Virus record (IMG/VR): IMGVR_UViG_3300032294_001909 | Location: 1 to 62,170 of that record | From: a virus | Taxonomy: Duplodnaviria; Caudoviricetes | DNA length: 62,170 nucleotides | Strand: one strand, 5' to 3' | Shown here: positions 1-14,768 of the stretch, piece after piece | Position numbering within the stretch: position 1 is the first letter of the stretch | Layout: the number at the start of each line of letters is the position of its first letter | Position numbers and translations under genes: made by a program | Notes under the pieces: generated by a model | Told to the model about the DNA's origin: nothing | The model's input: only the letters and a program-made list of their open reading frames with translations | The model's database searches: none

Positions 1-468
1 CATTGCCCCGACGCCAGCAGGATCGGCGGCAAACATCTTGAGAAGATTAGTAATCTCCTCGGTGATCTTACCGCTGGGAACGAACCCACCATCGGGATTG
101 ATTCGCCCGAAGAAGATGTTTGCACCGAACGGACCACCATCGGTGATCATCACCGAACCGTTGTACTTGGACCGCTCCCCAGCCAGACCCAACACCACCT
201 TCTGGCCACTCTCCGTCGTGAGGCGGATCTTCGGGTACTTGAGCTTCGCGGATGCCGTCTTGATGAGGGAGATAATCCCCGCCACCTCCAGCATCTCGGT
301 GGGCTCCGGGGCAGGGCGCACCGCCTTGTTCGTGAGAGTGACCACCCAGTACATCTGCTTGTCAGTCAGCCCACGCTTCCGGCCTTGAATAATCAGGTCA
401 TTGGCAAACTGCTTGTCACGAGGCCCGAGGTTAGGAAGAACCGCTTCGAGGTTGTCGATGATCTGCAT
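1..468 (-). CDS. hypothetical phage protein, runs off the window start (MQIIDNLEAVLPNLGPRDKQFAND...)
   Basis: ATG at 468 after a GGGAGA RBS, open to position 1, downstream of the promoter at 510-537; not in the ORF track because it has no stop in the window. Confidence 0.8.
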   Translation of the reverse strand, partial: MQIIDNLEAVLPNLGPRDKQFANDLIIQGRKRGLTDKQMYWVVTLTNKAVRPAPEPTEMLEVAGIISLIKTASAKLKYPKIRLTTESGQKVVLGLAGERSKYNGSVMITDGGPFGANIFFGRINPDGGFVPSGKITEEITNLLKMFAADPAGVGAM

Positions 469-509
469 TGCTTTCTCCCGCTGAAGTGTTTGCTGCGGTG
501 GACACTGCT

Positions 510-537
510 AACCTAGCACATCCCGGGAAAACCGCAA
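510..537 (-). promoter_or_regulatory. sigma70-like promoter, cassette 1
   Basis: TTGCGG-16-TAGGTT. Confidence 0.65.
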
Positions 538-582
538 CCCCCCTTGACAACCATCGGGCCACGGGTTATGCGCGGGCGGGCC

Positions 583-627
583 GTGATAAAATGCGTTGTG
601 GGCAACACTAGGGTAGTATTTTATCAC
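583..627. repeat. paired box 1 (span 45)
   Basis: GTGATAAAATGC...GTATTTTATCAC; 45 bp from the -35. Confidence 0.95.
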
Positions 628-663
628 ACTTCTGGGAACCGGTTTCCCGGCCCCCGTTATCGA

Positions 664-1398
664 TTAGTGTAGCACGTACGCCGTGGGCTCCGTCTTGTCC
701 CAGCACTTGGTGCAGTTATTCTCCGCACACTTGTGGGAGTTACCGGGTATCGTGGCGGGGCAAGCATTGTGCTTCGGGAAAGTCTCTAGTATCGGCAGAC
801 CACGGATGACTGTCGTGCCAGCAGCGAACCCGGGAATCTCGGGCGCAGCTTCGTCAAGCGCCAGCGCGGACGGGCGCAGGGAAACGTTTGGGAGGTTTCC
901 AAACTCTTGAAGAGTATCTAGCATAGAGGGGATAACCCAGCTACGGGTAGGGAACCAAAACCGAACGTCGGGGAGCGCTTGGGCAATCTTGATCCATGCC
1001 CGCACATAAGCCACCGCGAAAAAGTCCCCGGAGTCGTGGCCCCGGAAAAGCGGAACCTTAGCGGCCCGCACACTTTCCCGGATCATGTCCACCATAGCGG
1101 CAATGAATTCTGCCCCGTTGTCGTGAGCCAGCGTTTCGATAATCCACCCGAAGCGCGCAAGCTGCGCCTTTTCCGTGCTAGGCATATTGTAGAATCCTGC
1201 CGTAGCGTAGCACTCGTGGCAAACGGCATTCTCGCCGGCCCGTTTCATGGACACCTTGGCCCCGGGGCAGGTAGTAACCGCCGGGAGGCTCCACGAATAG
1301 CAGGGCATCTTGGACGGCGTGGAAAGGGAAATGGTTTCCCCATTGGACATCGTGCGGGCAATACGGGGGAAGCGCTTCGCGGCGGCGGTGCGGGGCAT
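664..1398 (-). CDS. Gp88-like Cys-rich phage protein
   Basis: TCPGA..C..CYA, RGHDSGDF and FWFPTR motifs plus a C-terminal Cys cluster; start moved to ATG 1398 (GGAG RBS, downstream of the promoter). Confidence 0.65.
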   Translation of the reverse strand: MPRTAAAKRFPRIARTMSNGETISLSTPSKMPCYSWSLPAVTTCPGAKVSMKRAGENAVCHECYATAGFYNMPSTEKAQLARFGWIIETLAHDNGAEFIAAMVDMIRESVRAAKVPLFRGHDSGDFFAVAYVRAWIKIAQALPDVRFWFPTRSWVIPSMLDTLQEFGNLPNVSLRPSALALDEAAPEIPGFAAGTTVIRGLPILETFPKHNACPATIPGNSHKCAENNCTKCWDKTEPTAYVLH

Positions 1399-1441
1399 CT
1401 TGGCTCCGTGCATTGGGGAGGGTACATCGGGGAACGCCACT

Positions 1442-1470
1442 AACCTAGCATCTTGGGAAATCTTTGGCAA
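1442..1470 (-). promoter_or_regulatory. sigma70-like promoter, cassette 2
   Basis: TTGCCA-17-TAGGTT. Confidence 0.75.
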
Positions 1471-1514
1471 CCCCCTTGACAAGGACTGGACACCGTGTTA
1501 TGCGGGCGCCAACG

Positions 1515-1558
1515 GTGATAAAATACATGTTATGTATGTAATATAGGCATTTTATCAC
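1515..1558. repeat. paired box 2 (span 44)
   Basis: GTGATAAAATAC...GCATTTTATCAC; 44 bp from the -35. Confidence 0.95.
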
Positions 1559-1601
1559 CAAAAGGGAAGCCCCCGGCGAAGTGCCGGGGGCGTTCCTTGG
1601 A

Positions 1602-2000
1602 TTAGAACGGCAGGTCGTCGTTCAATTCCTCGACCTGAATTTTCAGGTCGAAGTCATCGAACCCGTTGTGGTATCCGGCCACCGGCTGCTGGGCGTCGGG
1701 GTCGTTGAAATCCCTGTCTTCGGGATGCGGCCCCGGCTCCCCGGTGTAGTAGGGGTTCCGCTCCCACGTGTCGTAGGAGGTGAGGATCCATTCCCGGTCG
1801 GGGTTCTCCCGCCCGACGTTCCACGCATACTCCCGCATGGCCTCGGCGGGGGTGGCGGGGTGGTCGTTCTCTCGTTCCCACGCCATCTGGTTGTACTCCT
1901 TCTCCTCCCAGTCGAGGTCGTCGTGGTCACCCCACCCCTCCATTGCTTCCTCCCACCCGTCGAGGTCGATGTTTTCCCGGTCGTCGTAGTAGTCGCTCAT
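1602..2000 (-). CDS. very acidic 132-aa protein with an SSB-like C-terminal DDLPF tail
   Basis: AGGAG RBS before ATG 2000; about 39 D/E residues; ends LNDDLPF. Confidence 0.8.
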   Translation of the reverse strand: MSDYYDDRENIDLDGWEEAMEGWGDHDDLDWEEKEYNQMAWERENDHPATPAEAMREYAWNVGRENPDREWILTSYDTWERNPYYTGEPGPHPEDRDFNDPDAQQPVAGYHNGFDDFDLKIQVEELNDDLPF

Positions 2001-2051
2001 TGTGGATCTCCTGTTGCGGTGGCGGCGGGCTGCGGAGTGCAACCCACGCGC

Positions 2052-2080
2052 AATGTGCAACGGGCGGGAAGCCTTTACAA
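2052..2080 (-). promoter_or_regulatory. sigma70-like promoter, cassette 3
   Basis: TTGTAA-17-CACATT. Confidence 0.55.
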
Positions 2081-2125
2081 GAGGGAGTTTAGAAATTGTT
2101 ACACAACTGTTACACTCGGGGTCGC

Positions 2126-2160
2126 GTGATAAAACATAGGTCGCCCGTGCATTTTATCAC
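2126..2160. repeat. paired box 3 (span 35)
   Basis: GTGATAAAAC...GCATTTTATCAC; preceded by GTTACA-N5-GTTACA. Confidence 0.95.
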
Positions 2161-2206
2161 GCCCCGTGAAAAGGGGGAGAGGGCCGAAGCCCCCTCCCCC
2201 ACCCGA

Positions 2207-2596
2207 TCAGAGAAACTTGGAGATTGCCTTGAACGTGGAGGCAGAGACCATCTCCTCGTCAGTCATCTTGAGGATGCGGATGGCGTTCTCCACTTCGTTG
2301 ATGTCGTCATCGATACGGTATCTATGATCGACAGGCTCCGGGCGCTTGGCGATGAGGTCGGCGGGAATCATGAATCGCGCCGTCACGGATTCGGTGCTGC
2401 GGGCGTGGCCTACGGTATCCTTGTGAGCCATCTTCCACGAGGACACATCCAGCGAAGCGATCACCATCTTGTCCCACTTCTCCAACTCCTTGGTGTACTT
2501 CTCGTACAGAGCGGGGTACGCCTTCATCTCCTTCAGCTTCTTCTCCAGAGCAGCGATCACCTTCTTGGTTTGCACCTTCACGGTAATTCCAGCCAT
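2207..2596 (-). CDS. hypothetical protein
   Basis: 129 aa, GGAG RBS, followed by a terminator-like hairpin at ~2169-2200. Confidence 0.8.
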   Translation of the reverse strand: MAGITVKVQTKKVIAALEKKLKEMKAYPALYEKYTKELEKWDKMVIASLDVSSWKMAHKDTVGHARSTESVTARFMIPADLIAKRPEPVDHRYRIDDDINEVENAIRILKMTDEEMVSASTFKAISKFL

Positions 2597-2657
2597 CGCG
2601 TTCTCCGGTAGAGGTGGTGCCCCCCGGCGGATGCCGGGGGGCGGTACTGCTATCTTG

Positions 2658-3200
2658 TCACGCCAGTTCCAGCACGTTCCCGTTCACCGCCGCCCGCGAG
2701 ACGTTGGTCAACGTAAACATACGATACCGCCCGGAGGGAAGCAACTTCTCAATCCGGCGCTTGGCGATAGTCTTCGGTGCAGACTTGACCGGCTTCCGAG
2801 GAGTTCCCTCCTGAATCACGATCTTATGATTCAGCAGCCCCGACACATACAGCGCACCCGTTTCGTTGTGCATCCTGACACCGGGGAACCCGTCCACATT
2901 GGTATAGGTGTCCTTGTTGGTGTATGCGGAGTTATTCCCGATCCCCTTGGTGAGAGATTCGTTCCGGCTGTTCAGGAGTTCCTGTGCGGCCTGAATCACA
3001 TGGGGCCGCGCCCCAATCTTCTGGAGCAGGGGGAGGATGCGGTTCAACTTCACGATGTCCTTCGCGTACAGCGTCTCCGTCGTGGCCCCAAGGATAAGGT
3101 GATACTTGGCGACCTCCCCCGTCTCCTTGGTGGTGTAGGTGAAGCTGGCGAAGTGTGCGCTTATGCGCCGTGCGAGTGCTTCGAGTAGCTGGTGAATCAT
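2658..3200 (-). CDS. hypothetical basic protein
   Basis: 180 aa, GGAG RBS. Confidence 0.8.
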   Translation of the reverse strand: MIHQLLEALARRISAHFASFTYTTKETGEVAKYHLILGATTETLYAKDIVKLNRILPLLQKIGARPHVIQAAQELLNSRNESLTKGIGNNSAYTNKDTYTNVDGFPGVRMHNETGALYVSGLLNHKIVIQEGTPRKPVKSAPKTIAKRRIEKLLPSGRYRMFTLTNVSRAAVNGNVLELA

Positions 3201-3232
3201 GGGTTATACTCTCCGTTAGAGTGTGAGCCCCA

Positions 3233-3261
3233 AGAATAGCGTGGGGCAACCCCGGTGTCAA
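3233..3261 (-). promoter_or_regulatory. sigma70-like promoter, cassette 4
   Basis: TTGACA-17-TATTCT. Confidence 0.85.
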
Positions 3262-3275
3262 CCCCCCACTTTTGC

Positions 3276-3319
3276 GTGATAAAATGTTCTTGTATATGGA
3301 ACGCCGTGCATTTTATCAC
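3276..3319. repeat. paired box 4 (span 44)
   Basis: GTGATAAAATG...GCATTTTATCAC; 14 bp from the -35. Confidence 0.95.
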
Positions 3320-3373
3320 GCCCGGAGGGCGAGAAAAACCGCCGCCCCCCGGAGGGGGCGGCGTCTTCTCCTC

Positions 3374-4243
3374 TTACTGTTCCTCGCTGGACTCCTTAGC
3401 GAACGTGACCCCTAGGATGTGGTCGGCTGCTTTCTGCGCGGCGGATGCGGCGTCGAGAATCAGGCGGGGCTCCTTGCCCAACCGCGTTGCCCAATGCTGG
3501 ACGTAGGCGGTGCTGTTGTCCTGCACCGCGTCGAGGATTCCGCACTCAGCCGACAGGAACGCCGCCGTCATTTCGGCAATCAATTCCTCGCGGCTGTAGG
3601 GGTCGGTGCCGAACGTGCCGTCGAGCTTCCGGTCGAGTCTCGTGGCGTGTCCCGTGCTGTGCGCCATCTCGTGAAACATCGTGGAGTAGTAGCTTTCGGC
3701 GTTCACAAACTGAGCCAGCAGGGGCATCGTGATCTCGTCTCGTGAGGGCGTGTAGAACGCCATGTCGGACGATTGCACGGTAATCTTGGGGGGATTCTTC
3801 ATACCCCGCACCACCGATTCCGCCGCCGCAATGGGCTCCTTAGCCTTGACCTCCTCCACCTTGACGTTGCAGCCGTTCGTCTGAGCGAGGTTCCACACGT
3901 TGTACCAGCGAAGCATGGGGATGGTCTTCTTCTCCCCGGTGGCCTTGTCGGCAACCTCCTTGAAATTCCAGAACATGATCGGGGTGGCCTTTTCCCCCGT
4001 GTTGATGCGCCCCCCAAGGGCGTTGCAGCCCTTGAACGTCACCCATTGGCCGGTGGGGTAGCTCTTGATCTGCTGCAACATCCCCAAGAACAGGGCGTTG
4101 CTGCCACGGTACGGCTTCTTCGACTGGGCATTGTGGGGACGCCCCAGCATCCCCCCGGACCACGGCTTGCGCCACGGGATGACGCCGCCGTTGAGGGCGT
4201 CGATGAATCGCTGCGCGATAGTGTCGCGAATGTCCTGTTGCAT
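3374..4243 (-). CDS. ardC: ArdC-like antirestriction protein (ssDNA-binding N-domain plus zincin domain)
   Basis: PWRKPW, YRGSN, WVTFK, HEMAHSTGH and YSREELIAE motifs. Confidence 0.85.
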   Translation of the reverse strand: MQQDIRDTIAQRFIDALNGGVIPWRKPWSGGMLGRPHNAQSKKPYRGSNALFLGMLQQIKSYPTGQWVTFKGCNALGGRINTGEKATPIMFWNFKEVADKATGEKKTIPMLRWYNVWNLAQTNGCNVKVEEVKAKEPIAAAESVVRGMKNPPKITVQSSDMAFYTPSRDEITMPLLAQFVNAESYYSTMFHEMAHSTGHATRLDRKLDGTFGTDPYSREELIAEMTAAFLSAECGILDAVQDNSTAYVQHWATRLGKEPRLILDAASAAQKAADHILGVTFAKESSEEQ

Positions 4244-4286
4244 TGTTCCCCCTGTCGGGTGGTGAGGTGTTGCGGTGAACGGCTGT

Positions 4287-4314
4287 ATAATGCCCCCGGC
4301 GACCGCCGCCGCAA
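4287..4314 (-). promoter_or_regulatory. sigma70-like promoter, cassette 5
   Basis: TTGCGG-16-CATTAT. Confidence 0.5.
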
Positions 4315-4420
4315 CAGGGGGAAACCGCCGCCGTTACATTCCCGTTACAATGTCACGGGTTTGTAACAGTCTCGTGGGGGCACTTGACAAACGGCGGCTA
4401 CCGTGTTACACGCGGGTGCG

Positions 4421-4487
4421 GTGATAAAATGCCACGGGCGATGATAAAATAACATAGGCGGTTGTTTCTTGAGGAGCATTTTATCAC
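4421..4487. repeat. box cluster 5 (two forward half-sites at 4421 and 4441, one reverse)
   Basis: GTGATAAAATGC, ATGATAAAAT, GCATTTTATCAC. Confidence 0.95.
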
Positions 4488-4543
4488 GGTTGTGGACACA
4501 AAAAAACTGGGGGAGCGGTTTCTCGCTCCCCCAGTCTCTTGCG

Positions 4544-4759
4544 TTAGCTGTGGGTGTATCCGTCCTTCTCCACACCCAACCACAGCCCGCTGGTGGCCTG
4601 TACCATCACGGCACCGCTCCCGTCGAAGATCGGATGCACCTTCATCGTTCCCCCCTTCACCGATTCGGGGAACCGCTCCCCGACGTTTTCCAACGCCTTG
4701 CGCTGCTGCGGGGTCAGGGTCACGACGGGATCACCGCTGGCGTTCCAAACGATTTTCAT
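4544..4759 (-). CDS. hypothetical protein
   Basis: 71 aa, AGGAG RBS. Confidence 0.75.
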   Translation of the reverse strand: MKIVWNASGDPVVTLTPQQRKALENVGERFPESVKGGTMKVHPIFDGSGAVMVQATSGLWLGVEKDGYTHS

Positions 4760-4819
4760 GAGTGCTTCTCCTGTTGGGGACAGTACCGGGGGGAGGGAAT
4801 CTCCCCCCGGTGTTCACGG

Positions 4820-5083
4820 TCACGGCTTCTCGTTCGTTTCCTTGCCGGTGATTTCCAGCATCCGGTGGTTATACAGCGCGGTCAGGTCGGCGTAGGCTTC
4901 CTGAAGGCCCCGGCGACTCTGGACATACCGGCGACCCGTCAGGGTGGTTGCGGCTTCTCGCATCGCGGGCGGCGTGTACATCCGGCTGGCCTTGATTCCG
5001 TGGTCAAGGTACATACGCAAGGCGCTGGCGATGACCTTGATCCGGTACGCTTCAATCTGCTGCGGCGTGGTGAACGCTTTCAT
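4820..5083 (-). CDS. hypothetical protein, paralog of 7702-7926
   Basis: TTPQQIEAYR..YTPPAMR..TGRRY..SRRGL. Confidence 0.8.
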   Translation of the reverse strand: MKAFTTPQQIEAYRIKVIASALRMYLDHGIKASRMYTPPAMREAATTLTGRRYVQSRRGLQEAYADLTALYNHRMLEITGKETNEKP

Positions 5084-5142
5084 GCTGTCCCCGTGTTAGG
5101 AGGGTGTCGGATAGGGGCCGGAGTGCCCCGCCCGACGTTTCC

Positions 5143-5171
5143 AACCTAGCACTATTCGACCCGGAACGCAA
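5143..5171 (-). promoter_or_regulatory. sigma70-like promoter, cassette 6
   Basis: TTGCGT-17-TAGGTT with an extended TG. Confidence 0.7.
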
Positions 5172-5184
5172 TAGTCACTTTTGG

Positions 5185-5239
5185 GTGATAAAATGCCATA
5201 GGTGATAAAATGCTGAAGGGCAGCATGAAATTTTATCAT
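5185..5239. repeat. box cluster 6 (forward half-sites at 5185 and 5202, one reverse; outer span 55)
   Basis: 2x GTGATAAAATGC, ATTTTATCAT; 13 bp from the -35. Confidence 0.95.
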
Positions 5240-5300
5240 CATTTATGGCACAAAAAACTGCGGGGTGCCGGTAGAGTTCACGGCACCCCGCAGCTTCCTG

Positions 5301-5495
5301 TCACCCGTACAGGTCGCCGCCGTTCTCCAAGATGGTGGCGCACCCGTTGCAGTAGGCGTAGTGCGGCTGGATCCGCACCACCTTGCCGCACCCCGCGCAC
5401 TTTTTGCGGACGTTCGTGCGCTGCGTCTTGCGGTAGAACGCCCGCACCTCCGGGTCGTCGCCGCCGTGCCACTCGCCAAAGTTATCGTCGTACAT
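5301..5495 (-). CDS. small zinc-ribbon protein
   Basis: CAGC...CNGC; GGAGG RBS before ATG 5495. Confidence 0.75.
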   Translation of the reverse strand: MYDDNFGEWHGGDDPEVRAFYRKTQRTNVRKKCAGCGKVVRIQPHYAYCNGCATILENGGDLYG

Positions 5496-5551
5496 TGCCC
5501 AACCCTCCGGTTTCGGTTCCGGCGTTTCCGGGGTGGATCCGCCTACGGCGG

Positions 5552-5580
5552 AATATACGGCCAGATCAAGGGGGAAACCA
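5552..5580 (-). promoter_or_regulatory. promoter with a weak -35, cassette 7
   Basis: TGGTTT-17-TATATT; three GTTRCA repeats upstream. Confidence 0.5.
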
Positions 5581-5624
5581 TAGGCGTTGCACAATTGTTA
5601 CACAATCGTTACAATCACCAATCG

Positions 5625-5658
5625 GTGATAAAATAACCTAGATGGCGCATTTTATCAC
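5625..5658. repeat. paired box 7 (span 34)
   Basis: GTGATAAAAT...GCATTTTATCAC. Confidence 0.95.
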
Positions 5659-5698
5659 AACTTCTCCGGGGCCGGTTTCCCAGCCCCGGAGGGTCGTA

Positions 5699-6019
5699 TC
5701 ACTCTTCCGTGAAATCTTCGATTGCTTCGTCCAGAGTCTCGAACGGACCAAACCATGCCGAATCCGGGAGGCAACCCGGGAGGCAGTAGCACCAGCACCA
5801 GCCACCTTCCAGCCCCATCTCGCGCACAATCGCGTCCAGCATCAGGTCACGCACTCGCGAGTTCATGCTGGCCAGACGGAACTCCGGGAGCTTCATGAAC
5901 TCGTGAATCTCATCTTCCAGCCCTGCGGCCAATTCCGTCGCCGTCAATTGCGCGACCATGACGTTGGGGAGCTTGTGCGGATCCAACTCATCCGCCTTGC
6001 GCGAGTGATACATGGCCAT
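5699..6019 (-). CDS. hypothetical protein
   Basis: GGAGG RBS; GWCWCYCLPGCLPDS...GPFET motif. Confidence 0.75.
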   Translation of the reverse strand: MAMYHSRKADELDPHKLPNVMVAQLTATELAAGLEDEIHEFMKLPEFRLASMNSRVRDLMLDAIVREMGLEGGWCWCYCLPGCLPDSAWFGPFETLDEAIEDFTEE

Positions 6020-6076
6020 TAGTCCAACCCTCCGGGTTTGGTTTGGAAGCCCCGAATCGTTCGGGGCTTCGCCCCG

Positions 6077-6105
6077 AAGATAGGTGGGCGCAAGCCCAAA
6101 ATCAA
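6077..6105 (-). promoter_or_regulatory. sigma70-like promoter, cassette 8
   Basis: TTGATT-17-TATCTT. Confidence 0.75.
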
Positions 6106-6149
6106 GCACGGCGACACGCTTGTTACACAATCGTTACAATCACCAATCG

Positions 6150-6183
6150 GTGATAAAATGCATGTACTGGGGCATTTTATCAC
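6150..6183. repeat. paired box 8 (span 34)
   Basis: GTGATAAAATGC...GCATTTTATCAC; 44 bp from the -35. Confidence 0.95.
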
Positions 6184-6238
6184 CGCTGGAGGGGGCAAAA
6201 AAAAACTCCCGCCGATCTTCCGGCGGGAGCTTCTTTCG

Positions 6239-6493
6239 CTAGACGGCTTTCTGTGCTTCGTTCGCCAGTTCCGCGATGACGTAGCTATCGAACGAACGGG
6301 GAACGCTGTGGTCCACCAAATCTCGTGAAGCCCACTCAAACTCGAACCAGTAGGAACGGGCAGAGGGGAGTCTGACTCCCTTGAAGCCCCGGAAGAAACT
6401 GTCCACGAATACTGCCGGGACAGTCACCCGGACGATAGAGCCTTTCGACTCCACCCGGAACGGGTGCCCGTTGAAACTCACCTTCGTTCGCAT
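6239..6493 (-). CDS. hypothetical protein
   Basis: 84 aa, GAGGAG RBS. Confidence 0.75.
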   Translation of the reverse strand: MRTKVSFNGHPFRVESKGSIVRVTVPAVFVDSFFRGFKGVRLPSARSYWFEFEWASRDLVDHSVPRSFDSYVIAELANEAQKAV

Positions 6494-6546
6494 TATGCGC
6501 TCCTCAGTTATGGTGCCGTCGCGCCCCGGATGGGCTTGACGAATGT

Positions 6547-6574
6547 ATTATAGCACATTCCGGGCAATATGCAA
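6547..6574 (-). promoter_or_regulatory. sigma70-like promoter with A-tract, cassette 9
   Basis: TTGCAT-16-TATAAT. Confidence 0.8.
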
Positions 6575-6588
6575 GTATTTTTTTTCTG

Positions 6589-6633
6589 GTGATAAAATGC
6601 ATTGGCGCTATATAGGCGGGGGCATTTTATCAC
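6589..6633. repeat. paired box 9 (span 45)
   Basis: GTGATAAAATGC...GCATTTTATCAC; 14 bp from the -35. Confidence 0.95.
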
Positions 6634-6681
6634 CGTTGGAGGGCGCAAAAAGCCCCCAGCTTTCGCTGGGGGCCTCTTGCT

Positions 6682-6927
6682 TCAGGAGTCGAGTGCGCTC
6701 TTCACGATTGCCCGGATGCGCTTCTGGTCCTTGCTGTGCGTGACATCCACCCACACGCCGTTCACTTCCGCCTTCGCGATGTCGTGCGAGTAGATGCTAC
6801 CCAGTTCCGTGAAGATGCCTTCCACTTCCGCCAAACGGATGTTCCCCCGCTTGTTGTCCTTGAGGGTGGCGTACCACCCGTTCCGTAGGCGGATGCGGGT
6901 ACCGCTCTTGAGGTCATTCGTGAGCAT
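6682..6927 (-). CDS. hypothetical protein (MLTNDLKSGTRIRLRNGW...)
   Basis: GGAG RBS before ATG 6927. Confidence 0.8.
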   Translation of the reverse strand: MLTNDLKSGTRIRLRNGWYATLKDNKRGNIRLAEVEGIFTELGSIYSHDIAKAEVNGVWVDVTHSKDQKRIRAIVKSALDS

Positions 6928-6981
6928 GGTGGCTCCGTGTAGCTGGTGGCAGCGAGTCCGGGATGGCTTCGCTGTGCCAAC

Positions 6982-7010
6982 AACGTAACACCTCCGGGGC
7001 TGAAATGCAA
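6982..7010 (-). promoter_or_regulatory. sigma70-like promoter, cassette 10
   Basis: TTGCAT-17-TACGTT, A-tract upstream. Confidence 0.75.
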
Positions 7011-7023
7011 GCACTTTTTTTCG

Positions 7024-7068
7024 GTGATAAAATAATAGTACAGGGTATGCCGCAGCGCATTTTATCAC
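7024..7068. repeat. paired box 10 (span 45)
   Basis: GTGATAAAAT...GCATTTTATCAC; 13 bp from the -35. Confidence 0.95.
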
Positions 7069-7203
7069 CAATTATGCCCACGAGAGAGCCCCGCCTCCCA
7101 TATGGGAGACGGGGCCGGGGTGGTAACCCGCTCGAATGCTGTTGCGTCACGAGCCATTCCCGGGAGCAGCCCCCCGGCATCTCACCGGGGGGCTTCCCAC
7201 TCG

Positions 7204-7479
7204 TCACTCTTCGGTTCGGATGAACCATTCCGACATCACATGCGCCTCTTCCTCGCCATCGGGGGAGCGGATGAGGCCGTACTCCAGCACCTCGTTCTTG
7301 AACAGCACCAGCGTGAGGACCGGCTCCTCCGGGAGATGAAGCCCCATCTCCCGGAACACTTCCGCCGACTTGGTGCGCTTGCCATCCGCCAGCACCGCCA
7401 CCAGCCCCTTGGCCACGATAGCCTTAGCCATCTCATAGCGGTACAGGCCACTACGGGTCACCGCCTCGACTCGTAACAT
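7204..7479 (-). CDS. hypothetical protein
   Basis: 91 aa, AGGAGG RBS. Confidence 0.75.
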   Translation of the reverse strand: MLRVEAVTRSGLYRYEMAKAIVAKGLVAVLADGKRTKSAEVFREMGLHLPEEPVLTLVLFKNEVLEYGLIRSPDGEEEAHVMSEWFIRTEE

Positions 7480-7580
7480 GACAGCCTCCTAGGCTGTTCA
7501 GGTTCGCCGGGGCACCGGAGTGTGCCGCCGACACCAATATGATTACCTTTCAGCCCCCAAAAGTCAAGCACTTTTTTTCC

Positions 7581-7625
7581 GTGATAAAACAGCCCCTCTA
7601 CTGGGGTGGGTGGGCATTTTATCAT
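7581..7625. repeat. paired box 11 (span 45)
   Basis: GTGATAAAAC...GCATTTTATCAT; 13 bp from minus-strand TTGACT (7562-7567). Confidence 0.95.
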
Positions 7626-7701
7626 GCGTGACCGATCCGCTAGGAAAAAATTGCCGGGGGGCTAGGAACCTTCTGCCTAGCCCCCCGGAATCATTTACCG
7701 C

Positions 7702-7926
7702 CTAGTTCATGAACAGGGCGTTCAGGTCGTTCAGGGCTGCCTCCAGCCCCTTCCGGCTGCGGGGGTACGTCTTGCCGGTGTACTGGGAAGCAACCGCCCG
7801 CATGTTCGCCGGGGTGTAGGCGCGGTTCGCCTTCATGCCGGTCTTCAGGTACAGCTTGATGGCAGACATGATCACACGAAGCCGAAAGGCTTCGATCTGC
7901 CCGGGGGTGGTTAACACTCGCTCCAT
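7702..7926 (-). CDS. hypothetical protein, paralog of 4820-5083
   Basis: TTPGQIEAFR..YTPANMR..TGKTY..SRKGL. Confidence 0.8.
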   Translation of the reverse strand: MERVLTTPGQIEAFRLRVIMSAIKLYLKTGMKANRAYTPANMRAVASQYTGKTYPRSRKGLEAALNDLNALFMN

Positions 7927-7982
7927 GCTCGCTCCAGTAGGAGAGTGCGTCCGCATTGCCGAAGTGCATTGCGAACACCCAC

Positions 7983-8011
7983 AATATGGCTAATGTTAGA
8001 CTGGGAGTCAA
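7983..8011 (-). promoter_or_regulatory. sigma70-like promoter, cassette 12
   Basis: TTGACT-17-CATATT, A-tract upstream. Confidence 0.75.
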
Positions 8012-8024
8012 GCATTTTTTTTGG

Positions 8025-8069
8025 GTGATAAAACAGCCCTGCGTTTGGTGTACATGCGCATTTTATCAC
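8025..8069. repeat. paired box 12 (span 45)
   Basis: GTGATAAAAC...GCATTTTATCAC; 13 bp from the -35. Confidence 0.95.
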
Positions 8070-8070
8070 A

Positions 8071-8104
8071 GAAAAGCGAGCCCCCCGGCGCGAGGCCGGG
8101 GGGC
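8071..8104 (-). terminator. intrinsic terminator-like hairpin, near-identical copy at ~8528-8561
   Basis: GCCCCCCGGC/GCCGGGGGGC stem followed by a short U-tract on the minus strand. Confidence 0.6.
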
Positions 8105-8110
8105 GTCCCC

Positions 8111-8380
8111 TCATAACTGGACGTTGTGGTAGTCGTCGTACTCGGCGTTGTCGTCGTCGTCCCCCTCGTCGTCGGACCCGAACATCGCCGTCCACTCGGC
8201 GGGGGTGATGCCGGTCTTGATGAACTCCCGCTGCTCGGCGTTGAGCATCGGGAACGCCTTCTGAATCAGGGTACCGGCCTTCCACGCCGCCTCACAGGCG
8301 TCGAACTCGTCCTGCGTGAGGGGGACGAACATGGCATTCATCTTGCCAGACATCTGGCTCCTGCGAGTCACCTTGAGCAT
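8111..8380 (-). CDS. hypothetical protein with an acidic tail
   Basis: LIQKAFPMLNAEQREFIKTGITPAEW; AGGAG RBS. Confidence 0.8.
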   Translation of the reverse strand: MLKVTRRSQMSGKMNAMFVPLTQDEFDACEAAWKAGTLIQKAFPMLNAEQREFIKTGITPAEWTAMFGSDDEGDDDDNAEYDDYHNVQL

Positions 8381-8439
8381 TGTCCTGTCTCCTGAGAGAG
8401 GGTGTCGTGCCGCGCCGGGTTGCGCTGCCGACAGGAACC

Positions 8440-8467
8440 AATATACACTACTTTCCCCCCGGCGCAA
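8440..8467 (-). promoter_or_regulatory. sigma70-like promoter, cassette 13
   Basis: TTGCGC-16-TATATT. Confidence 0.7.
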
Positions 8468-8481
8468 GTGCGGATTTTCCG

Positions 8482-8526
8482 GTGATAAAATAGCACCCGG
8501 GCACCCCTATAGAGTTATTTTATCAC
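8482..8526. repeat. paired box 13 (span 45)
   Basis: GTGATAAAATA...TATTTTATCAC; 14 bp from the -35. Confidence 0.95.
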
Positions 8527-8577
8527 AGAAAAGCGAGCCCCCCGGCGCGAGGCCGAGGGGCTGGTACTGCGGGGTGG

Positions 8578-9057
8578 CTAGAGCCACCCCTGTTCCGCAA
8601 AGCTAGTGTAGCGGGCCGCACCGATGATGATGTGGTCGTGGACAGCGATGTCCAACAGCCGCCCCGCTGCCACCAACTGCGCCGTAATGTTCCTATCCTC
8701 GGCGCTGGGGGTGGGATCCCCGCTGGGGTGATTGTGGGCGATGATGAGTGCAGCGGCATTGAGTGCGATGGCCATCCGGAAAACTTCCCGGGGATGCACC
8801 AGCGATGAGTCAAGCAACCCACGGGTAACCTCAACCCGGGCGATGCACCGATGCTGCGCGTTCAAGATGGCCACGCAGAAAACTTCGGAGTCCTCGTTTT
8901 CCAGATCGGAAAACAGCGCGGCAGCTTCCCTCGGCGTACGCACCGGGGCGAGTACCGGCGGGGCGTTGTACTCGGGGCGGGGCGTACGCACCAGCCGCAG
9001 CCACGGGGCGTGGCCAGTCACACGGGGCGTCACTAACGACATCCGGGGCGTTTCCAT
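8578..9057 (-). CDS. radC: RadC-like JAB/MPN domain protein (stand-alone domain)
   Basis: VHPREVF, HNHPSGDPTPSAED and DHIIIG motifs. Confidence 0.92.
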   Translation of the reverse strand: METPRMSLVTPRVTGHAPWLRLVRTPRPEYNAPPVLAPVRTPREAAALFSDLENEDSEVFCVAILNAQHRCIARVEVTRGLLDSSLVHPREVFRMAIALNAAALIIAHNHPSGDPTPSAEDRNITAQLVAAGRLLDIAVHDHIIIGAARYTSFAEQGWL

Positions 9058-9114
9058 GCGGGTTCCCTCTGTTCGGGGTTGTCAGCCGCGCCGGGTTGCG
9101 CTGCCGACACCCCA

Positions 9115-9143
9115 AGTATTACCCTCCAACCCCCAAAAGTCAA
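9115..9143 (-). promoter_or_regulatory. sigma70-like promoter, cassette 14
   Basis: TTGACT-17-AATACT. Confidence 0.65.
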
Positions 9144-9156
9144 GCACTTTTTTTCG

Positions 9157-9201
9157 GTGATAAAACAGCCCCCCGGGGGTAGGGGATGGGCATTTTATCA
9201 C
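9157..9201. repeat. paired box 14 (span 45)
   Basis: GTGATAAAAC...GCATTTTATCAC; 13 bp from the -35. Confidence 0.95.
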
Positions 9202-9242
9202 AGAGAGGGCTCCCCCGCCGAAGCGGGGGAGCGATCCGTGGG

Positions 9243-9425
9243 CTATCGGCGGCGAGCCTCCTCCTCCATGATCCGCAGCCGACGCGCAAACTCCTGCTGC
9301 ACCGCAGGAATCCGATCCCCATGAATCGTACGCTGCGCCTGAGTGGTGATGCGAAGCTGCTCTGCACGAGCTTGCATGGGCGCGTTCCCGACGCGCACCC
9401 GATCCGGTAAGACAGTCCAGTCCAC
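9243..9425 (-). CDS. hypothetical protein
   Basis: GGAGG RBS then GTG at 9425. Confidence 0.55.
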   Translation of the reverse strand: MDWTVLPDRVRVGNAPMQARAEQLRITTQAQRTIHGDRIPAVQQEFARRLRIMEEEARRR

Positions 9426-9482
9426 GGTAACCTCCAAGAGGGGGGGGGTGCCCCCCGGCGGGGTGCCGGGGGGCGGTTGTTG

Positions 9483-9749
9483 CTAGTCGATGTCGATCTT
9501 CAATTCACCATCGGTGCTGATCCAGAAGTGCCCCAGCGTCACCTCATGTTCGTCGCTGGTGCGGCAGTTGTGCAGGGTGACGTTCCGAGTCTGGTCAATG
9601 GTCCGCAGGAAGTCGATCAACTCCCCGACAGTCAGGTGGTGCGATCCGCGAAACTGACGCACCATTTCCCCGCAGCACTCCGCTTCCTCGTTGAATTCGT
9701 ATGGCATCCCTTCAACGTTTTCGCTCACCTTCCCACGGATTCGTAACAT
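9483..9749 (-). CDS. hypothetical protein
   Basis: GGAGGA RBS. Confidence 0.65.
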   Translation of the reverse strand: MLRIRGKVSENVEGMPYEFNEEAECCGEMVRQFRGSHHLTVGELIDFLRTIDQTRNVTLHNCRTSDEHEVTLGHFWISTDGELKIDID

Positions 9750-9813
9750 TCGCACGTTCCTCCAAGAGGGGGGGGGGGTGCCCCCCGGCGGGGTGCCGGG
9801 GGGCGGGGGGTGC

Positions 9814-10035
9814 TTATCGAGCCACCCGGTTGATGTAGCTCACCTCACCACCGAACATCCCGACGAACACCCGGTACCCGTCCACCGTGGCGACCCACGT
9901 GGTGTTGGGGCGGCCCGAGTTGCTCACGCTGCTGCTGTCCAACTTCCAGTTGGCCCCGGGGATGACCTGCTCCACCACCAGCCGGTCCTGCGCCACCAGC
10001 AGGTCCATCGCGGCCATCGTCACGCTCTGCGACAT
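9814..10035 (-). CDS. hypothetical protein
   Basis: GAGG RBS before ATG 10035. Confidence 0.7.
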   Translation of the reverse strand: MSQSVTMAAMDLLVAQDRLVVEQVIPGANWKLDSSSVSNSGRPNTTWVATVDGYRVFVGMFGGEVSYINRVAR

Positions 10036-10094
10036 TGTGCGTCCCTCTGTTCGAGTCTGTCGGGTGGGGCGGGCTTGCCCTGCCGACGACCCCA

Positions 10095-10122
10095 AGTTTA
10101 CCTTTCGACCGCCGAATGTCAA
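10095..10122 (-). promoter_or_regulatory. sigma70-like promoter of the rightmost cassette (no box pair)
   Basis: TTGACA-16-TAAACT. Confidence 0.75.
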
Positions 10123-10401
10123 GGCCCGGAAGGTTTCTTGGAACTGGAAAGTTTTTTGCCGGCGACCACCCTAGGGTGGCTCACGAACATCACGCTAATA
10201 TTTTTTTGCCTATAGAACTTTTCTTATACAATAATTATGCGTCCCCCAACATGCGCCCCCAATACTGCGCCCCCCAAGTTACGTCCTTGTTCTAGGAATA
10301 TCAAAAAATTATCGACCCCTCGGCATGTTGAAAAAAAATTCTAAAAAAATTTTTGGGTATGGGAAGACTATTTATACAAAACTTCTACTTAACTTGATTT
10401 T

Positions 10402-12780: not shown

Positions 12781-12782
12781 TT

Positions 12783-13070
12783 ATGAAAAATGAAAAATTC
12801 GGAGCCGTTCTAGAATTACCCGAAAATATTATTGTATATGTAGATTACAATACATTAAACTTAGAAGTATTAACAAAAGTTGACGCCAAGGTACATGCGC
12901 AACTGCTACACGCATACTTCACGATAAAAGGAGAATCTATGCTTGGCTATTTTCCGTACCGGGGAGATGAGATAGTAGCTCTTATGGAAAAACACATGAA
13001 TGCCAAGATAGTAGATCGGTGGGATGATTCGGTTAGTTCAAAACAATCAGATAAAATGATTGTATACTAA
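12783..13070 (+). CDS. hypothetical protein
   Basis: 95-aa ORF with AGGAG RBS. Confidence 0.75.
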   Translation: MKNEKFGAVLELPENIIVYVDYNTLNLEVLTKVDAKVHAQLLHAYFTIKGESMLGYFPYRGDEIVALMEKHMNAKIVDRWDDSVSSKQSDKMIVY

Positions 13071-13096
13071 TTATAGTAAATGCTTTGGAGTAGCTT

Positions 13097-13345
13097 ATGA
13101 TTTCTTTAATAGACTTAATACTTGAATTAAACGATACAGAAGAACGTAAGGTATGGAGAACATACGCAAATAGATTTGGTTCAAGAAACACGGTGGGTCA
13201 GGTCAGGTATTTTAAAAATAGAGATAAAGCATCAAAGTTTGCCACCGGGGCAAAAAAAGGACCAAAGATGGGAAGACCCAAGGCAAAAATCAAACCTCGG
13301 CATAAAGAAGAAAAACAAAAGTACGACTATACTCCGGGAACATAA
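13097..13345 (+). CDS. basic hypothetical protein
   Basis: 82 aa, GGAG RBS. Confidence 0.75.
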   Translation: MISLIDLILELNDTEERKVWRTYANRFGSRNTVGQVRYFKNRDKASKFATGAKKGPKMGRPKAKIKPRHKEEKQKYDYTPGT

Positions 13346-13346
13346 A

Positions 13347-13380
13347 AAAATCGCTAGCTTGATGGCTAGCGATTTTGTTT
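13347..13380. terminator. bidirectional intrinsic terminator
   Basis: AAAATCGCTAGC-loop-GCTAGCGATTTT between convergent genes. Confidence 0.8.
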
Positions 13381-13885
13381 ATTCGCAGAATTGATATATA
13401 AACGGCTTGGGAGGATGAAACTCAGGTAACCCATATTTTAGTTGAAGGCTTTTTATTAGTTCCTTGGATGGTCTTCGTTTATTATCCCATCCCATAATCC
13501 GTGTATTTTTATTTACTTCTTCGATAAATTCTTTAAATGGCCCGAAATAAAGTAGCTTTAGTTCTGTGTATGTGCTGTTTGGCTCTAATATAGCAATCAA
13601 GTCTACGCTTTCTTCGCCCGTGTATGTACAAGAAACTTCGGTGTGCATTTCACTGACAGTTTTTACTTGTACCGTTTTGCCGTCCATGAGAACTAAATCA
13701 ACGGCGTCATCGTGGCCCTTTTGTTTTTTTGTAGCATTCCATACAGAGCGTAATATAGCTTCACCGTAGTCACCGGAATGGTTGAACTTTTCTCCGTAAA
13801 ATCCAACGCTACGGTGAAGATTATTTACTTGCCGCCAAACTTCTAGATACGTTTTTGCTTCGTCATTTAATGGTATTAGTGACAT
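13379..13885 (-). CDS. putative PD-(D/E)xK-like nuclease fold protein
   Basis: GDYGE...D...DGKTVQVKT pattern. Confidence 0.5.
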   Translation of the reverse strand: MSLIPLNDEAKTYLEVWRQVNNLHRSVGFYGEKFNHSGDYGEAILRSVWNATKKQKGHDDAVDLVLMDGKTVQVKTVSEMHTEVSCTYTGEESVDLIAILEPNSTYTELKLLYFGPFKEFIEEVNKNTRIMGWDNKRRPSKELIKSLQLKYGLPEFHPPKPFIYQFCE

Positions 13886-14092
13886 TACCGGCTGTTATTG
13901 TGGTCGAGCTAAATGTGCTGTTTAGAAGGCCGCTTGTGGAAAATCCCGATGTGATAGTTCCGGATCCACTACAGGGAAAATTCCATTTTTCGTTTGCCCA
14001 TTGTTGATCGTAATACCAGATGCTATTTCCCGTATATGTATTAATGGCCGTGCCCGTGAATGGTTTAACGGTTAAACCTTCCCACCACGGGC

Positions 14093-14293
14093 TTACCGAA
14101 AAGGGCGGATTAAGATATCAATATTATCTAAATCGTCTTCCCAATCGGACGGGATTTCTCTAATAACTTTTGCACGAGCCTTGTCTTCGGTAGCCGCTAA
14201 TACAATGTCGCGAGCAATAACTTGTGCCAGACCAGCGTCTTCCGTTTCCGGATTGTATACAACCACGTAATCCCATACTAACTTTTTTGCCAT
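14093..14293 (-). CDS. small protein ending IRPFR; probable -1 frameshift extension to 13863
   Basis: C CCU UUU slippery site plus a hairpin; 78-codon open -1 frame. Confidence 0.8.
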   Translation of the reverse strand: MAKKLVWDYVVVYNPETEDAGLAQVIARDIVLAATEDKARAKVIREIPSDWEDDLDNIDILIRPFR

Positions 14294-14305
14294 AAAACCC
14301 TCTCT

Positions 14306-14650: not shown

Positions 14651-14679
14651 AAATTACCTTTAGGTTGAAGTTAGGTGTA

Positions 14680-14768
14680 CGGAAGGAGAGGGATTCGAAC
14701 CCTCGGTGCAAGTTTCCTCACACGGCGGTTTAGCAAACCGCTACCTTAAGCCTCTCGGTCATCCTTCC
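14680..14768 (-). tRNA. tRNA-Ser(GCT)
   Basis: GGAAGGA acceptor, anticodon stem GCGGT-TT GCT AA-ACCGC, long variable arm, GTTCGAATC. Confidence 0.95.

What the first reader, a model, noticed from the sequence alone, without database searches (positions are those of the whole stretch)
510..10122. Array of self-contained expression cassettes punctuated by 14 paired GTGATAAAA...TTTTATCAC boxes: candidate undescribed phage system
Seen: read on the minus strand, each unit is [box pair] > promoter > 1-3 small genes > (usually) GC hairpin terminator > next box pair. The pairs lie at 583, 1515, 2126, 3276, 4421, 5185, 5625, 6150, 6589, 7024, 7581, 8025, 8482 and 9157, giving 30 half-sites. The consensus is a 12-bp inverted repeat, GTGATAAAATGC/GCATTTTATCAC, around a spacer that is different every time. 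I saw no such pair in the other 52 kb, even though it is more AT-rich. Known: attC, dif/pdif, loxP-type and CRISPR repeats do not have this layout. Inference: one protein binds all units, either co-regulating an immediate-early/host-takeover regulon (compare SPO1 and T5 early modules) or marking exchangeable cassettes. No candidate recombinase or regulator is evident in the window.
Basis: partly seen in the sequence, partly recalled or inferred. Interest (0 to 1): 0.92.

Follow-up and report, generated by a model that had tools for sequence, protein, structure and literature searches.

The report
Conserved operator-like box in phage early cassettes
A short DNA box repeated 30 times between the small early genes of this uncultured phage is real and is shared by several other phages, so it is most likely a protein-binding control site added to a known type of shuffling promoter-terminator cassette.

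Summary
There are 30 half-sites (14 inverted pairs plus 2 extras), all within 583-9201, inside a 59% GC block of a 38% GC partial phage contig.

The block is not an assembly chimera. An independent 30-kb viral contig (G003) has homologues of both compartments in the same layout.

The core is an asymmetric 10-mer, R-TGATAAAA-Y. It recurs in GC-richer early blocks of at least five other uncultured viral contigs. There it is mostly single or tandem and points with transcription (39 of 44 sites). Only this genome pairs it in inverted form.

Each pair lies between a GC hairpin terminator and a sigma70-type promoter, at distances quantised in helical turns. Cargo includes ArdC and RadC-like genes, and cargo order is shuffled between relatives.

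Overall this is a variant of the published PeSL cassettes of T4-type phages. It carries an added multi-copy operator-like site, reminiscent of mycobacteriophage stoperators. The scan noted a comparable GC-rich cassette block before on other DNA (e1-5999873), with a different box.

The binder is unknown. No regulator or recombinase is encoded on this truncated contig. Two AT-hook proteins conserved in the relatives' blocks are candidates only.

The parts
583..627 (-). box pair 1 (span 45), upstream of the truncated gene 468..1
1515..1558 (-). box pair 2 (span 44), upstream of the GP88-family gene 1413..664
2126..2160 (-). box pair 3 (span 35), followed by TGTAAC 11-bp direct repeats; upstream of the acidic 132-aa gene 2000..1602
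3276..3319 (-). box pair 4 (span 44), upstream of promoter TTGACA-17-TATTCT and genes 3200..2658 and 2596..2207
4421..4487 (-). box pair 5 (span 67) with an extra inner half-site at 4441; upstream of the ArdC-like gene 4243..3374
5185..5239 (-). box pair 6 (span 55) with an extra half-site at 5202; upstream of genes 5083..4820 and 4759..4544
5625..5658 (-). box pair 7 (span 34), followed by TGTAAC repeats; upstream of the Cys-rich gene 5507..5301
6150..6183 (-). box pair 8 (span 34), followed by TGTAAC repeats and TTGATT-17-TATCTT; upstream of gene 6013..5699
6589..6633 (-). box pair 9 (span 45), A-tract, TTGCAT-16-TATAAT; gene 6493..6239
7024..7068 (-). box pair 10 (span 45); gene 6927..6682
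7581..7625 (-). box pair 11 (span 45), A7, TTGACT-17-AATCAT; gene 7479..7204
8025..8069 (-). box pair 12 (span 45), TTGACT-17-CATATT; gene 7926..7702 (paralogue of 5083..4820)
8482..8526 (-). box pair 13 (span 45); gene 8380..8111 (49-54% identical homologues in G001 and G003)
9157..9201 (-). box pair 14 (span 45), A7, TTGACT-17-AATACT; RadC-like gene 9057..8578
10095..10122 (-). first leftward promoter TTGACA-16-TAAACT. It has no box and no upstream terminator. It drives three small ORFs (10035..9814, 9755..9483, 9377..9243) separated by GC hairpins without boxes
1..10150 (-). GC-rich (0.58-0.63 per 2 kb) early or anti-defence block, 19 genes, all on the minus strand, truncated at the contig's left end
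10238..10278 (.). 14-nt tandem repeats at the GC/AT boundary. One extra copy in run X2. Logan contigs break here

Best explanation
The boxes are copies of one asymmetric 10-bp protein-binding site, R-TGATAAAA-Y.

The site belongs to a composite boundary unit repeated between the small genes of a GC-rich early or anti-defence block. The unit runs: intrinsic terminator, then box(es), then further upstream elements, then a sigma70-type promoter, then SD. At least six uncultured AT-rich phage contigs share this block type.

In this genome every gene-direction box has gained an inverted partner. The pair sits at a fixed helical phase upstream of the promoter.

I infer that a sequence-specific DNA-binding protein occupies all units and controls them together. 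The most likely effects are shut-off of the early cassettes or insulation of each unit from read-through.

That protein is not encoded on this truncated contig. It may be phage-encoded, with two AT-hook proteins of the relatives' block core as candidates, or host-encoded.

The repeated units also provide homology for cassette shuffling, as in PeSLs.

Shown: the site, its conservation, placement, orientation and phasing, and the shuffled cargo order. Inferred: that a protein binds, which protein, and the sign of the effect.
For: 1. Non-randomness: 28 exact 9-mers against 1.18 expected.

2. Restriction to the block: site density is 2.96 per kb inside and 0.135 per kb outside, although the outside is more AT-rich.

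3. Conservation far above that of the proteins. The same core fills the GC-richer blocks of G001 (9 of 12 exact copies in 20.1-31.4 kb), of G002, G003 and G004 (the reversed-pattern control gave 0) and of L364. Shared cargo proteins are only 33-60% identical.

4. Flanking positions are purine-only and pyrimidine-only in all 74 in-block sites.

5. Variable arrangements fit a monomer-type site that can be arrayed, not a fixed palindrome. Arrangements seen: single copies; tandem repeats at about 11, 13 and 20-22 bp; inverted pairs at 34-67 bp.

6. Placement:
- 14 of 14 pairs sit between a GC hairpin and a promoter.
- 4 of 4 intra-operon hairpins without a promoter lack boxes.
- The one promoter without an upstream unit lacks a box.

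7. Phasing in this genome. The distal box lies 81 bp from the -10 in 7 units, and 91, 101, 103, 111 and 112 bp in five others. The proximal box lies 36-37 bp from the -10 in 8 units and 67-68 bp in 4.

8. Spacer length is kept while spacer sequence is not (identity 0.31).

9. Candidate binders. The F4 family (invariant K-R-G-R-P-x-K in 28 of 28 aligned members) and an nrdC.10-like AAA ATPase with an invariant N-terminal RGRP sit in all four relatives' blocks. All four box-bearing IMG/VR relatives known before one search are among the five F4-encoding IMG/VR contigs.
Against: - No binder is identified. No DNA-binding domain was found in the 19 block proteins or in 58 other ORFs.
- F4 and the ATPase are absent from this contig.
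- The fifth F4-encoding contig (L360) has no exact box, only a variant next to the CCCGAA repeat.
- F4's fold matches nothing solved (best Foldseek E 0.2).
- Box-to-promoter phasing is not evident in the relatives (distances 77-151 bp, weak -35 calls).
- In this genome the 10-bp steps could be a by-product of inserting modules that themselves have 11-bp periods, or of descent by duplication.
- Six of the 14 promoter calls score low or have a near-tied alternative.
- All 14 gene-direction boxes here also fit an extended -10 (TGnTAAAAT).
Confidence: 0.5

Rival explanations
1. Pure PeSL-type unit with no dedicated binder. The box is only the AT-rich or UP-like upstream part of a strong early promoter cassette. 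It is kept uniform by promoter function plus gene conversion among repeats, and its main evolutionary role is homology for cassette shuffling.
For: - The architecture matches PeSLs: a stem-loop just upstream of an AT-rich region, a sigma70-like promoter and an SD, repeated between ORFans (passages read).
- In 8 units the proximal box plus an A-tract lies 13-14 nt upstream of the -35. This resembles UP-element placement, a comparison I make from recall.
- Cargo order is shuffled with orientation kept.
- Gene-sized skips appear in contigs of other samples.
- The conserved ATPase of the relatives' blocks is an nrdC.10 homologue of T4-like phages.
Against: - Gene conversion within one genome cannot explain an identical 8-mer core, with constrained flanks, across six diverged contigs.
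- In the relatives the box lies 77-151 bp from the -10, too far for an UP element.
- Box arrays of 3+3 occur at block edges.
Confidence: 0.2
2. The boxes are promoters themselves. In this genome each gene-direction box is an extended -10 promoter (TGnTAAAAT) giving a second, upstream start. The inverted partner fires antisense.
For: All 14 gene-direction sites in the window read TGATAAAAT. The consensus scan lists one such site with a TG extension.
Against: - In the relatives all 39 gene-direction sites end in C, not T, at the position that would be -7. This follows: 39 C and 14 T among 53 co-directional sites, and the 14 T are this window's.
- Tandem copies 11-13 bp apart make no sense as promoters.
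- Face-to-face promoters whose start points coincide would occlude each other.
- The site is absent upstream of genes outside the block.
Confidence: 0.1
3. Iteron-type sites of a replication or partition-like protein. Direct arrays would serve an origin or boundary function. Inverted copies would serve as operators, as with Rep proteins of iteron plasmids (recalled).
For: - Triplets of boxes with a 20-21-bp period occur at block edges in G004 and L364, in both orientations.
- Perfect TTATCCACA DnaA-type boxes sit directly beside boxes in G001, G004 and L364.
- A conserved AAA+ ATPase is present in the blocks.
Against: - This window has no DnaA-type box and no direct array.
- The sites are spread over 9 kb, one set per promoter.
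- No Rep-like protein is recognised.
- The ATPase is an nrdC.10 homologue of unknown function.
Confidence: 0.1
4. Site-specific recombination sites that mark exchangeable cassettes (integron, lox or res-like).
For: Inverted arms flank a variable spacer. Span classes differ by about 10 bp. Cassette content varies between relatives.
Against: - No integrase, resolvase or invertase is found in the window or in the relatives' blocks.
- In the relatives the site is mostly unpaired (39 of 44 co-directional).
- Spacers of 10-43 bp have no conserved core.
- The cassettes carry their own promoters.
Confidence: 0.04
5. Assembly chimera: a GC-rich phage fragment joined by mistake to an AT-rich phage.
For: GC steps from about 0.6 to 0.35 within 200 bp. 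Logan contigs break at 10237-10260. Depth is about 1.6 times higher on the GC side in two runs.
Against: - G003, an independent 29.6-kb contig, holds homologues of 4 block genes and 12 AT-part genes in the same layout.
- G001, G002, G004 and L364 show the same GC step.
- A Logan contig of run X1 spans 9777-10260 with no differences.
- Run X6, from another study, holds near-identical pieces of both compartments at similar depth.
- The 11-mer CCCCTTGACAA occurs only at 540, 1472 and 20756.
- Both compartments use TTGACA-type promoters and SD sites.
Confidence: 0.02

Closest known systems
PeSL (promoter-early stem-loop) cassettes of T4-type phages (Arbiol et al. 2010, PMC2839356; Comeau et al. 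2014, PMC4122927; passages read)
   Same: - A composite intergenic unit of a terminator stem-loop, an AT-rich stretch, a sigma70-like early promoter and an SD, repeated between small ORFans of a plastic early region.
- Relatives differ by gain, loss and reordering of single genes.
- The relatives' block core includes a homologue of T4-type nrdC.10.
   Different: - There is an extra, sharply conserved 10-bp site, identical across diverged phages, arrayed as pairs or tandems.
- There are further upstream modules: CCCGAAG and TGTAAC direct repeats with an 11-bp period.
- The block is a GC-rich compartment in an AT-rich genome.
- Mini-circles and crossover points were not examined here.
Stoperators of Cluster A mycobacteriophages (abstract of PMC9283540 seen in the search listing; other details recalled)
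   Same: Many copies of one short asymmetric site lie in short intergenic gaps of a phage. They are predominantly in one orientation relative to transcription (true of the relatives here), which suggests one protein acting at every unit.
   Different: - Stoperators belong to temperate phages with a known immunity repressor and are spread genome-wide.
- Here no repressor or integrase is seen and the sites are confined to one block.
- In this genome the sites are in inverted pairs at a fixed phase to promoters.
Early host-takeover regions of lytic phages (T5 pre-early region, SPO1 host-takeover module; recalled, not read)
   Same: A roughly 10-kb run of small genes, each with a strong host-type promoter and terminator, carrying anti-host functions.
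   Different: A shared upstream operator-like box and a compositional compartment are, to my recollection, not features of those modules. I did not check the literature on this point.
Iterons and Rep operators of iteron plasmids (recalled)
   Same: The same short site is used as direct arrays in some places and as inverted pairs upstream of promoters in others. DnaA-type boxes lie next to the arrays in relatives.
   Different: No Rep protein and no origin have been identified. There is one site set per early promoter over 9 kb.

Membership tests
PeSL cassettes | Repeated composite intergenic unit: a stem-loop directly upstream of an AT-rich region and a sigma70-like promoter, then SD and start codon | tested here: met
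   14 of 14 units
PeSL cassettes | Located among small ORFans of a plastic (hyperplastic) early region | tested here: met
   Of 19 small genes, 3 have a Pfam family and 9 have a PHROG match at E <= 0.05
PeSL cassettes | Indels, replacements and reordering of single genes between relatives at the units | tested here: inconclusive
   Order is shuffled with orientation kept relative to G001 and G003. Gene-sized skips occur in contigs of X2 and X4, but the letters between are unknown. Exact crossover points were not resolved
PeSL cassettes | Recombination between units yields mini-circles | not testable with these tools
   Only assembled contigs of runs were available
PeSL cassettes | Host genome is a T4-type myovirus | tested here: inconclusive
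   gp25-like baseplate protein in the window and an nrdC.10 homologue in the relatives. No T4 capsid, portal or terminase was seen on this partial contig
Stoperator-type multi-copy repressor sites | Short asymmetric site, many copies, in intergenic gaps | tested here: met
   R-TGATAAAA-Y; 74 in-block sites in five genomes
Stoperator-type multi-copy repressor sites | One orientation relative to transcription | tested here: inconclusive
   Relatives: 39 of 44 co-directional. This window: 14 co-directional and 16 anti
Stoperator-type multi-copy repressor sites | Cognate immunity repressor and temperate lifestyle | tested here: not met
   No repressor or integrase domain in the window's ORFs. The contig is partial
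Integron attC or lox-type recombination sites | Cognate tyrosine or serine recombinase nearby | tested here: not met
   None in the window or in the relatives' blocks
Integron attC or lox-type recombination sites | Paired inverted arms are intrinsic to the site | tested here: not met
   The sites are mostly unpaired in the relatives
Extended -10 sigma70 promoter | TGn followed by a hexamer ending in T | tested here: inconclusive
   Met by 14 of 14 gene-direction sites here. Met by 0 of 39 in the relatives, which end in C
Iteron origin | Direct arrays with a period of about two turns, DnaA boxes, and a Rep gene | tested here: not met
   Arrays and DnaA-type boxes occur only in relatives and not in this window. 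No Rep gene found

The most novel reading that the evidence does not exclude
The R-TGATAAAA-Y box is the landing pad of a phage-encoded AT-hook machine. The machine would consist of the F4 protein plus the nrdC.10-like AAA+ ATPase, both with invariant RGRP hooks. It would assemble at every cassette boundary and act as an ATP-driven insulator or silencer that times the shut-off of an early anti-defence block.

On this reading the GC-rich composition of the block serves three purposes:
- It makes these short A/T sites unique.
- It lets early genes be translated from the host's tRNA pool before the phage tRNAs appear.
- It may let the block escape silencing of AT-rich DNA by the host.

It would also give the first function to the widespread T4-type gene nrdC.10.
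Probability: 0.12. Interest if true: 0.85.

Novelty: new variant of a known kind. Interest (0 to 1): 0.6.

Why it matters
Early regions of lytic phages hold most anti-defence and host-takeover genes, yet their regulation outside a few model phages is unknown.

This work gives a sharply defined cis-element, a small family of genomes that share it, and a short candidate list of binders. So the question of how an uncultured phage coordinates or insulates a dozen early cassettes becomes testable with oligos and two recombinant proteins.

The recurring GC-rich early compartment inside AT-rich phage genomes was also noted on other DNA by this scan. It deserves an explanation of its own.

Tried and rejected
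- **Paired-box scans.** Pattern scans for the paired box in viral, metagenome and prokaryote collections gave only isolated single hits in AT-rich DNA and no arrays. They missed the relatives because those carry unpaired boxes.
- **Backbone relatives.** megablast of the block against deposited phages: no match. The 1569-aa protein has only distant hits. The 792-aa protein has no relatives in IMG/VR. GP88 relatives at about 30% identity carry no boxes.
- **Circularity.** Not shown. The apparent 304-aa minus-strand ORF at the right end is the shadow of a Thr/Pro/Ser repeat gene.
- **RNA or cruciform hairpin reading.** The arms can pair (-9 to -20 kcal/mol), but the relatives lack the second arm, so I rejected this reading. 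No Rfam family lies in the block.
- **Expression.** No RNA holder was listed, so nothing can be said about expression.
- **Published operator.** The full-text search for the two 10-mers found 102 papers. The 20 listed are primers or unrelated sequences. No other literature search for the motif was made.
- **Regulator search.** Pfam and PHROGs on the 19 block proteins, and Pfam on 58 other ORFs, gave nothing DNA-binding.
- **The 198-aa protein (79% identical in G001 and G003).** Considered as a binder and dropped. It has no Pfam hit, and its best hits are Bacteroides and crAss-like phage proteins, one of them annotated as peptidoglycan-binding. The off-block box copies lie inside its coding sequence.
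- **F4.** The model is confident (pLDDT 83) but has no fold match. The ATPase and GP88 have no solved relatives. L360 failed the prediction that F4-encoding contigs carry exact boxes.
- **Phasing in relatives.** Not seen.
- **Host.** Not identified. I draw no conclusion from the tmRNA tag or from the best hits.
- **Supplementary files** of the PeSL papers were not seen. They may hold unit alignments relevant to the comparison.

Full report
**1. What the record is**

The window is the whole record: one 62,170-bp virus contig. It encodes phage functions, namely baseplate proteins, Ig-domain tail proteins, an endolysin, SbcC and RtcB, plus six tRNAs and a tmRNA.

It is only part of a genome. No terminase, portal or capsid was recognised, and both ends cut genes.

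Positions 1 to about 10150 have 0.58-0.63 GC. The rest has about 0.34-0.43.

**2. The observation**

- GTGATAAAA occurs 28 times against 1.18 expected, and 27 of the 28 copies lie in 583-9201.
- With one mismatch there are 30 half-sites in the block: 14 inverted pairs at the coordinates given, plus two extra sites at 4441 and 5202.
- Outside the block there are 8 one-mismatch singles and no pair.
- The outer spans of the pairs are 45 bp (7 units), 44 (2), 34-35 (3), 55 and 67.
- Spacer sequences are unrelated. Mean pairwise identity is 0.31 among six units, against 0.49 for the adjoining promoter flank.

**3. Anatomy of a unit**

All recognisable genes of the block are on the minus strand: ArdC with a zincin domain, a RadC-like JAB protein and a GP88-family protein.

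Read on that strand, every pair follows a strong GC hairpin within 60 nt. MFE ranges from -22.7 to -39.9 kcal/mol, and 10 of 14 also have a U-run of 4 or more. Every pair precedes a sigma70-like promoter and an SD.

Two controls fit this pattern. Four gaps inside operons have similar hairpins but no promoter and no box. The first leftward promoter, at 10122-10095, has nothing upstream and no box.

A scored promoter scan gives the following distances:

| Measure | Distance (units) |
|---|---|
| Proximal box end to -10 start | 36-37 bp (8), 67-68 bp (4), 42 bp (1), 128 bp (1) |
| Distal box start to -10 start | 81 bp (7), then 91, 101, 103, 111, 112 bp; outliers 76 and 195 bp |

So 12 of 14 units fall in classes that differ by whole helical turns. 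Six of the 14 promoter calls are weak or nearly tied, so these figures are good but not final.

**4. Is the GC-rich block really part of this phage?**

Logan contigs of the best-holding run break at 10237-10260, inside a 14-nt tandem repeat. Depth is about 1.6 times higher on the GC side in two runs of one study. That could suggest a chimera. Five lines of evidence argue otherwise:

- One Logan contig spans 9777-10260 without a difference.
- A run of another study (X6) holds near-identical pieces of both compartments at similar low depth.
- Both compartments use SD sites and TTGACA-type promoters.
- The 11-mer CCCCTTGACAA occurs only at 540, 1472 and 20756.
- An independent 29.6-kb IMG/VR contig (G003) carries homologues of four block genes and of twelve AT-part genes at 29-84% identity. 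Its layout is the same: GC block, then leftward genes, then a divergent hub, then rightward genes.

The same GC step is seen in G001, G002, G004 and L364. I regard the chimera reading as refuted.

**5. Relatives change the picture of the box**

A cargo protein led to G001, a 164-kb contig about 90% complete. Its commonest 10-mer is GTGATAAAAC.

A probe made from the second repeated module (TGTAAC direct repeats) found G002, G003 and G004. A composite pattern found L364.

In all of them the core is concentrated in a 0.49-0.54 GC block within a 0.36-0.42 GC genome.

Across the window and G001-G004, the 74 in-block sites define R-TGATAAAA-Y. The flanking positions are purine-only and pyrimidine-only.

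In the four relatives 39 of 44 sites point with transcription. The sites are single copies or tandem repeats at about 11, 13 and 20-22 bp. Most are followed by an 11-bp-period CCCGAAG direct repeat, then often by the TGTAAC repeats, then by the promoter.

Inverted pairs are rare there: one in G002 and one in L364, each flanking the CCCGAAG element.

Arrays of three plus three boxes, and DnaA-type 9-mers, mark the block edges in G004 and L364. G001 has a DnaA-type 9-mer beside a box at its block edge. This window has none.

The inverted pairing is therefore a speciality of this genome, not the nature of the site. That removes the cruciform, RNA hairpin and lox or attC-like readings.

**6. Shuffling**

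- G001 and G003 share the cargo order 4544, 1602, 6682, 8111, GP88.
- This window has 8111, 6682, 5301, 4544, 1602, GP88.
- Every gene keeps its orientation.

Contigs of other samples skip gene-sized pieces at 2204-2657, 5518-6239 and 9486-9758. What lies between is not known.

This is what PeSL-type recombination between repeated promoter-terminator units would produce (passages read). Crossover points were not resolved.

**7. Who binds?**

Nothing on this contig looks DNA-binding.

All four relatives keep a block core of GP88, an AAA ATPase, a 131-aa protein (F4) and a SWIM-like 107-aa protein. The SWIM reading is my own recall of the CxC...CxH pattern.

Both the ATPase and F4 carry invariant RGRP AT-hook motifs. 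This contig ends just after GP88, where those genes would lie.

The ATPase is a homologue of nrdC.10 of T4-like phages, at 39% identity over 92% of its length, with hits in 1,309 records. That gene has no known function.

The evidence for these candidates is limited:

- F4 has 67 metagenomic relatives, none annotated.
- F4 has a confident model without a fold match.
- Of the five F4-encoding IMG/VR contigs, four carry box arrays. The fifth (L360) does not and has only a variant next to a CCCGAA repeat.

They are candidates and no more. An AT-hook alone would not explain the invariant G and TG of the core.

**8. Verdict**

Its frame is known: PeSL-like early cassettes, with a multi-copy site in the manner of stoperators (search listing).

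What is new:

- the conserved box itself;
- its phased inverted pairing in this genome;
- the companion upstream modules;
- the recurrent GC-rich compartment.

The compartment may therefore be a wider habit of uncultured large phages.

Noticed in passing
window 1-10150 vs 10237-20000: Depth of Logan contigs is about 1.6 times higher over the GC-rich block than over the AT part in two runs: 18.7 vs 11.8, and about 12.5 vs about 7.8. This could be GC bias, a terminal repeat present twice per genome, or the block being shared with another phage.
   Followed up: partly
window 10238-10278: Three 14-nt tandem repeats lie exactly at the GC/AT boundary. One run carries an extra unit, and assemblies break here.
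   Followed up: partly
window 2097-2116, 4333-4411, 5596-5614, 6121-6139: TGTAAC direct repeats with an 11-bp period lie between box and promoter in four units. They are nearly identical in G001-G004 and served as the probe that found the relatives. This looks like a site for a second, direct-repeat-binding factor.
   Followed up: partly
window 20747-20767: Back-to-back TTGACA -35 hexamers form a palindrome at the divergence point of the leftward and rightward AT-part genes. The same CCCCTTGACAA arrangement, facing away from the genes, occurs in block units 583 and 1515.
   Followed up: partly
window 24312-24653: A phage-encoded tmRNA (tag GNYNLALAA) and six tRNAs lie in 14.6-20.5 kb. The tRNAs may compensate for a codon-usage gap, which would fit early genes being GC-rich.
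   Followed up: no
window 4820-5083 and 7702-7926: Two paralogous small basic helical proteins (pI about 10) are the only duplicated cargo. One has a weak match to PHROG 19182, of unknown function.
   Followed up: no
window 1602-2000: Acidic 132-aa protein ending in DDLPF. Its central part is 57-60% identical in G001 and G003.
   Followed up: no
window 9438-9482 and 9756-9813: Near-identical G/C-only hairpins flank gene 9483-9755. A contig of run X2 skips exactly that gene.
   Followed up: partly
window 61244-62170: A Thr/Pro/Ser-rich tandem-repeat protein is cut by the contig end. It probably broke the assembly.
   Followed up: no
G001 31165-31190; G004 about 90.97 kb; L364 206-300: Perfect DnaA-type 9-mers lie directly beside boxes at the edge of the GC-rich block in relatives. 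G004 and L364 also have three-plus-three box arrays in opposite orientations about 300 bp apart.
   Followed up: partly
L321:7801-8667 and L321:8692-9087 (G001): An nrdC.10-like AAA ATPase and a 131-aa protein of a 67-cluster metagenomic family both carry invariant RGRP AT-hook motifs.
   Followed up: partly
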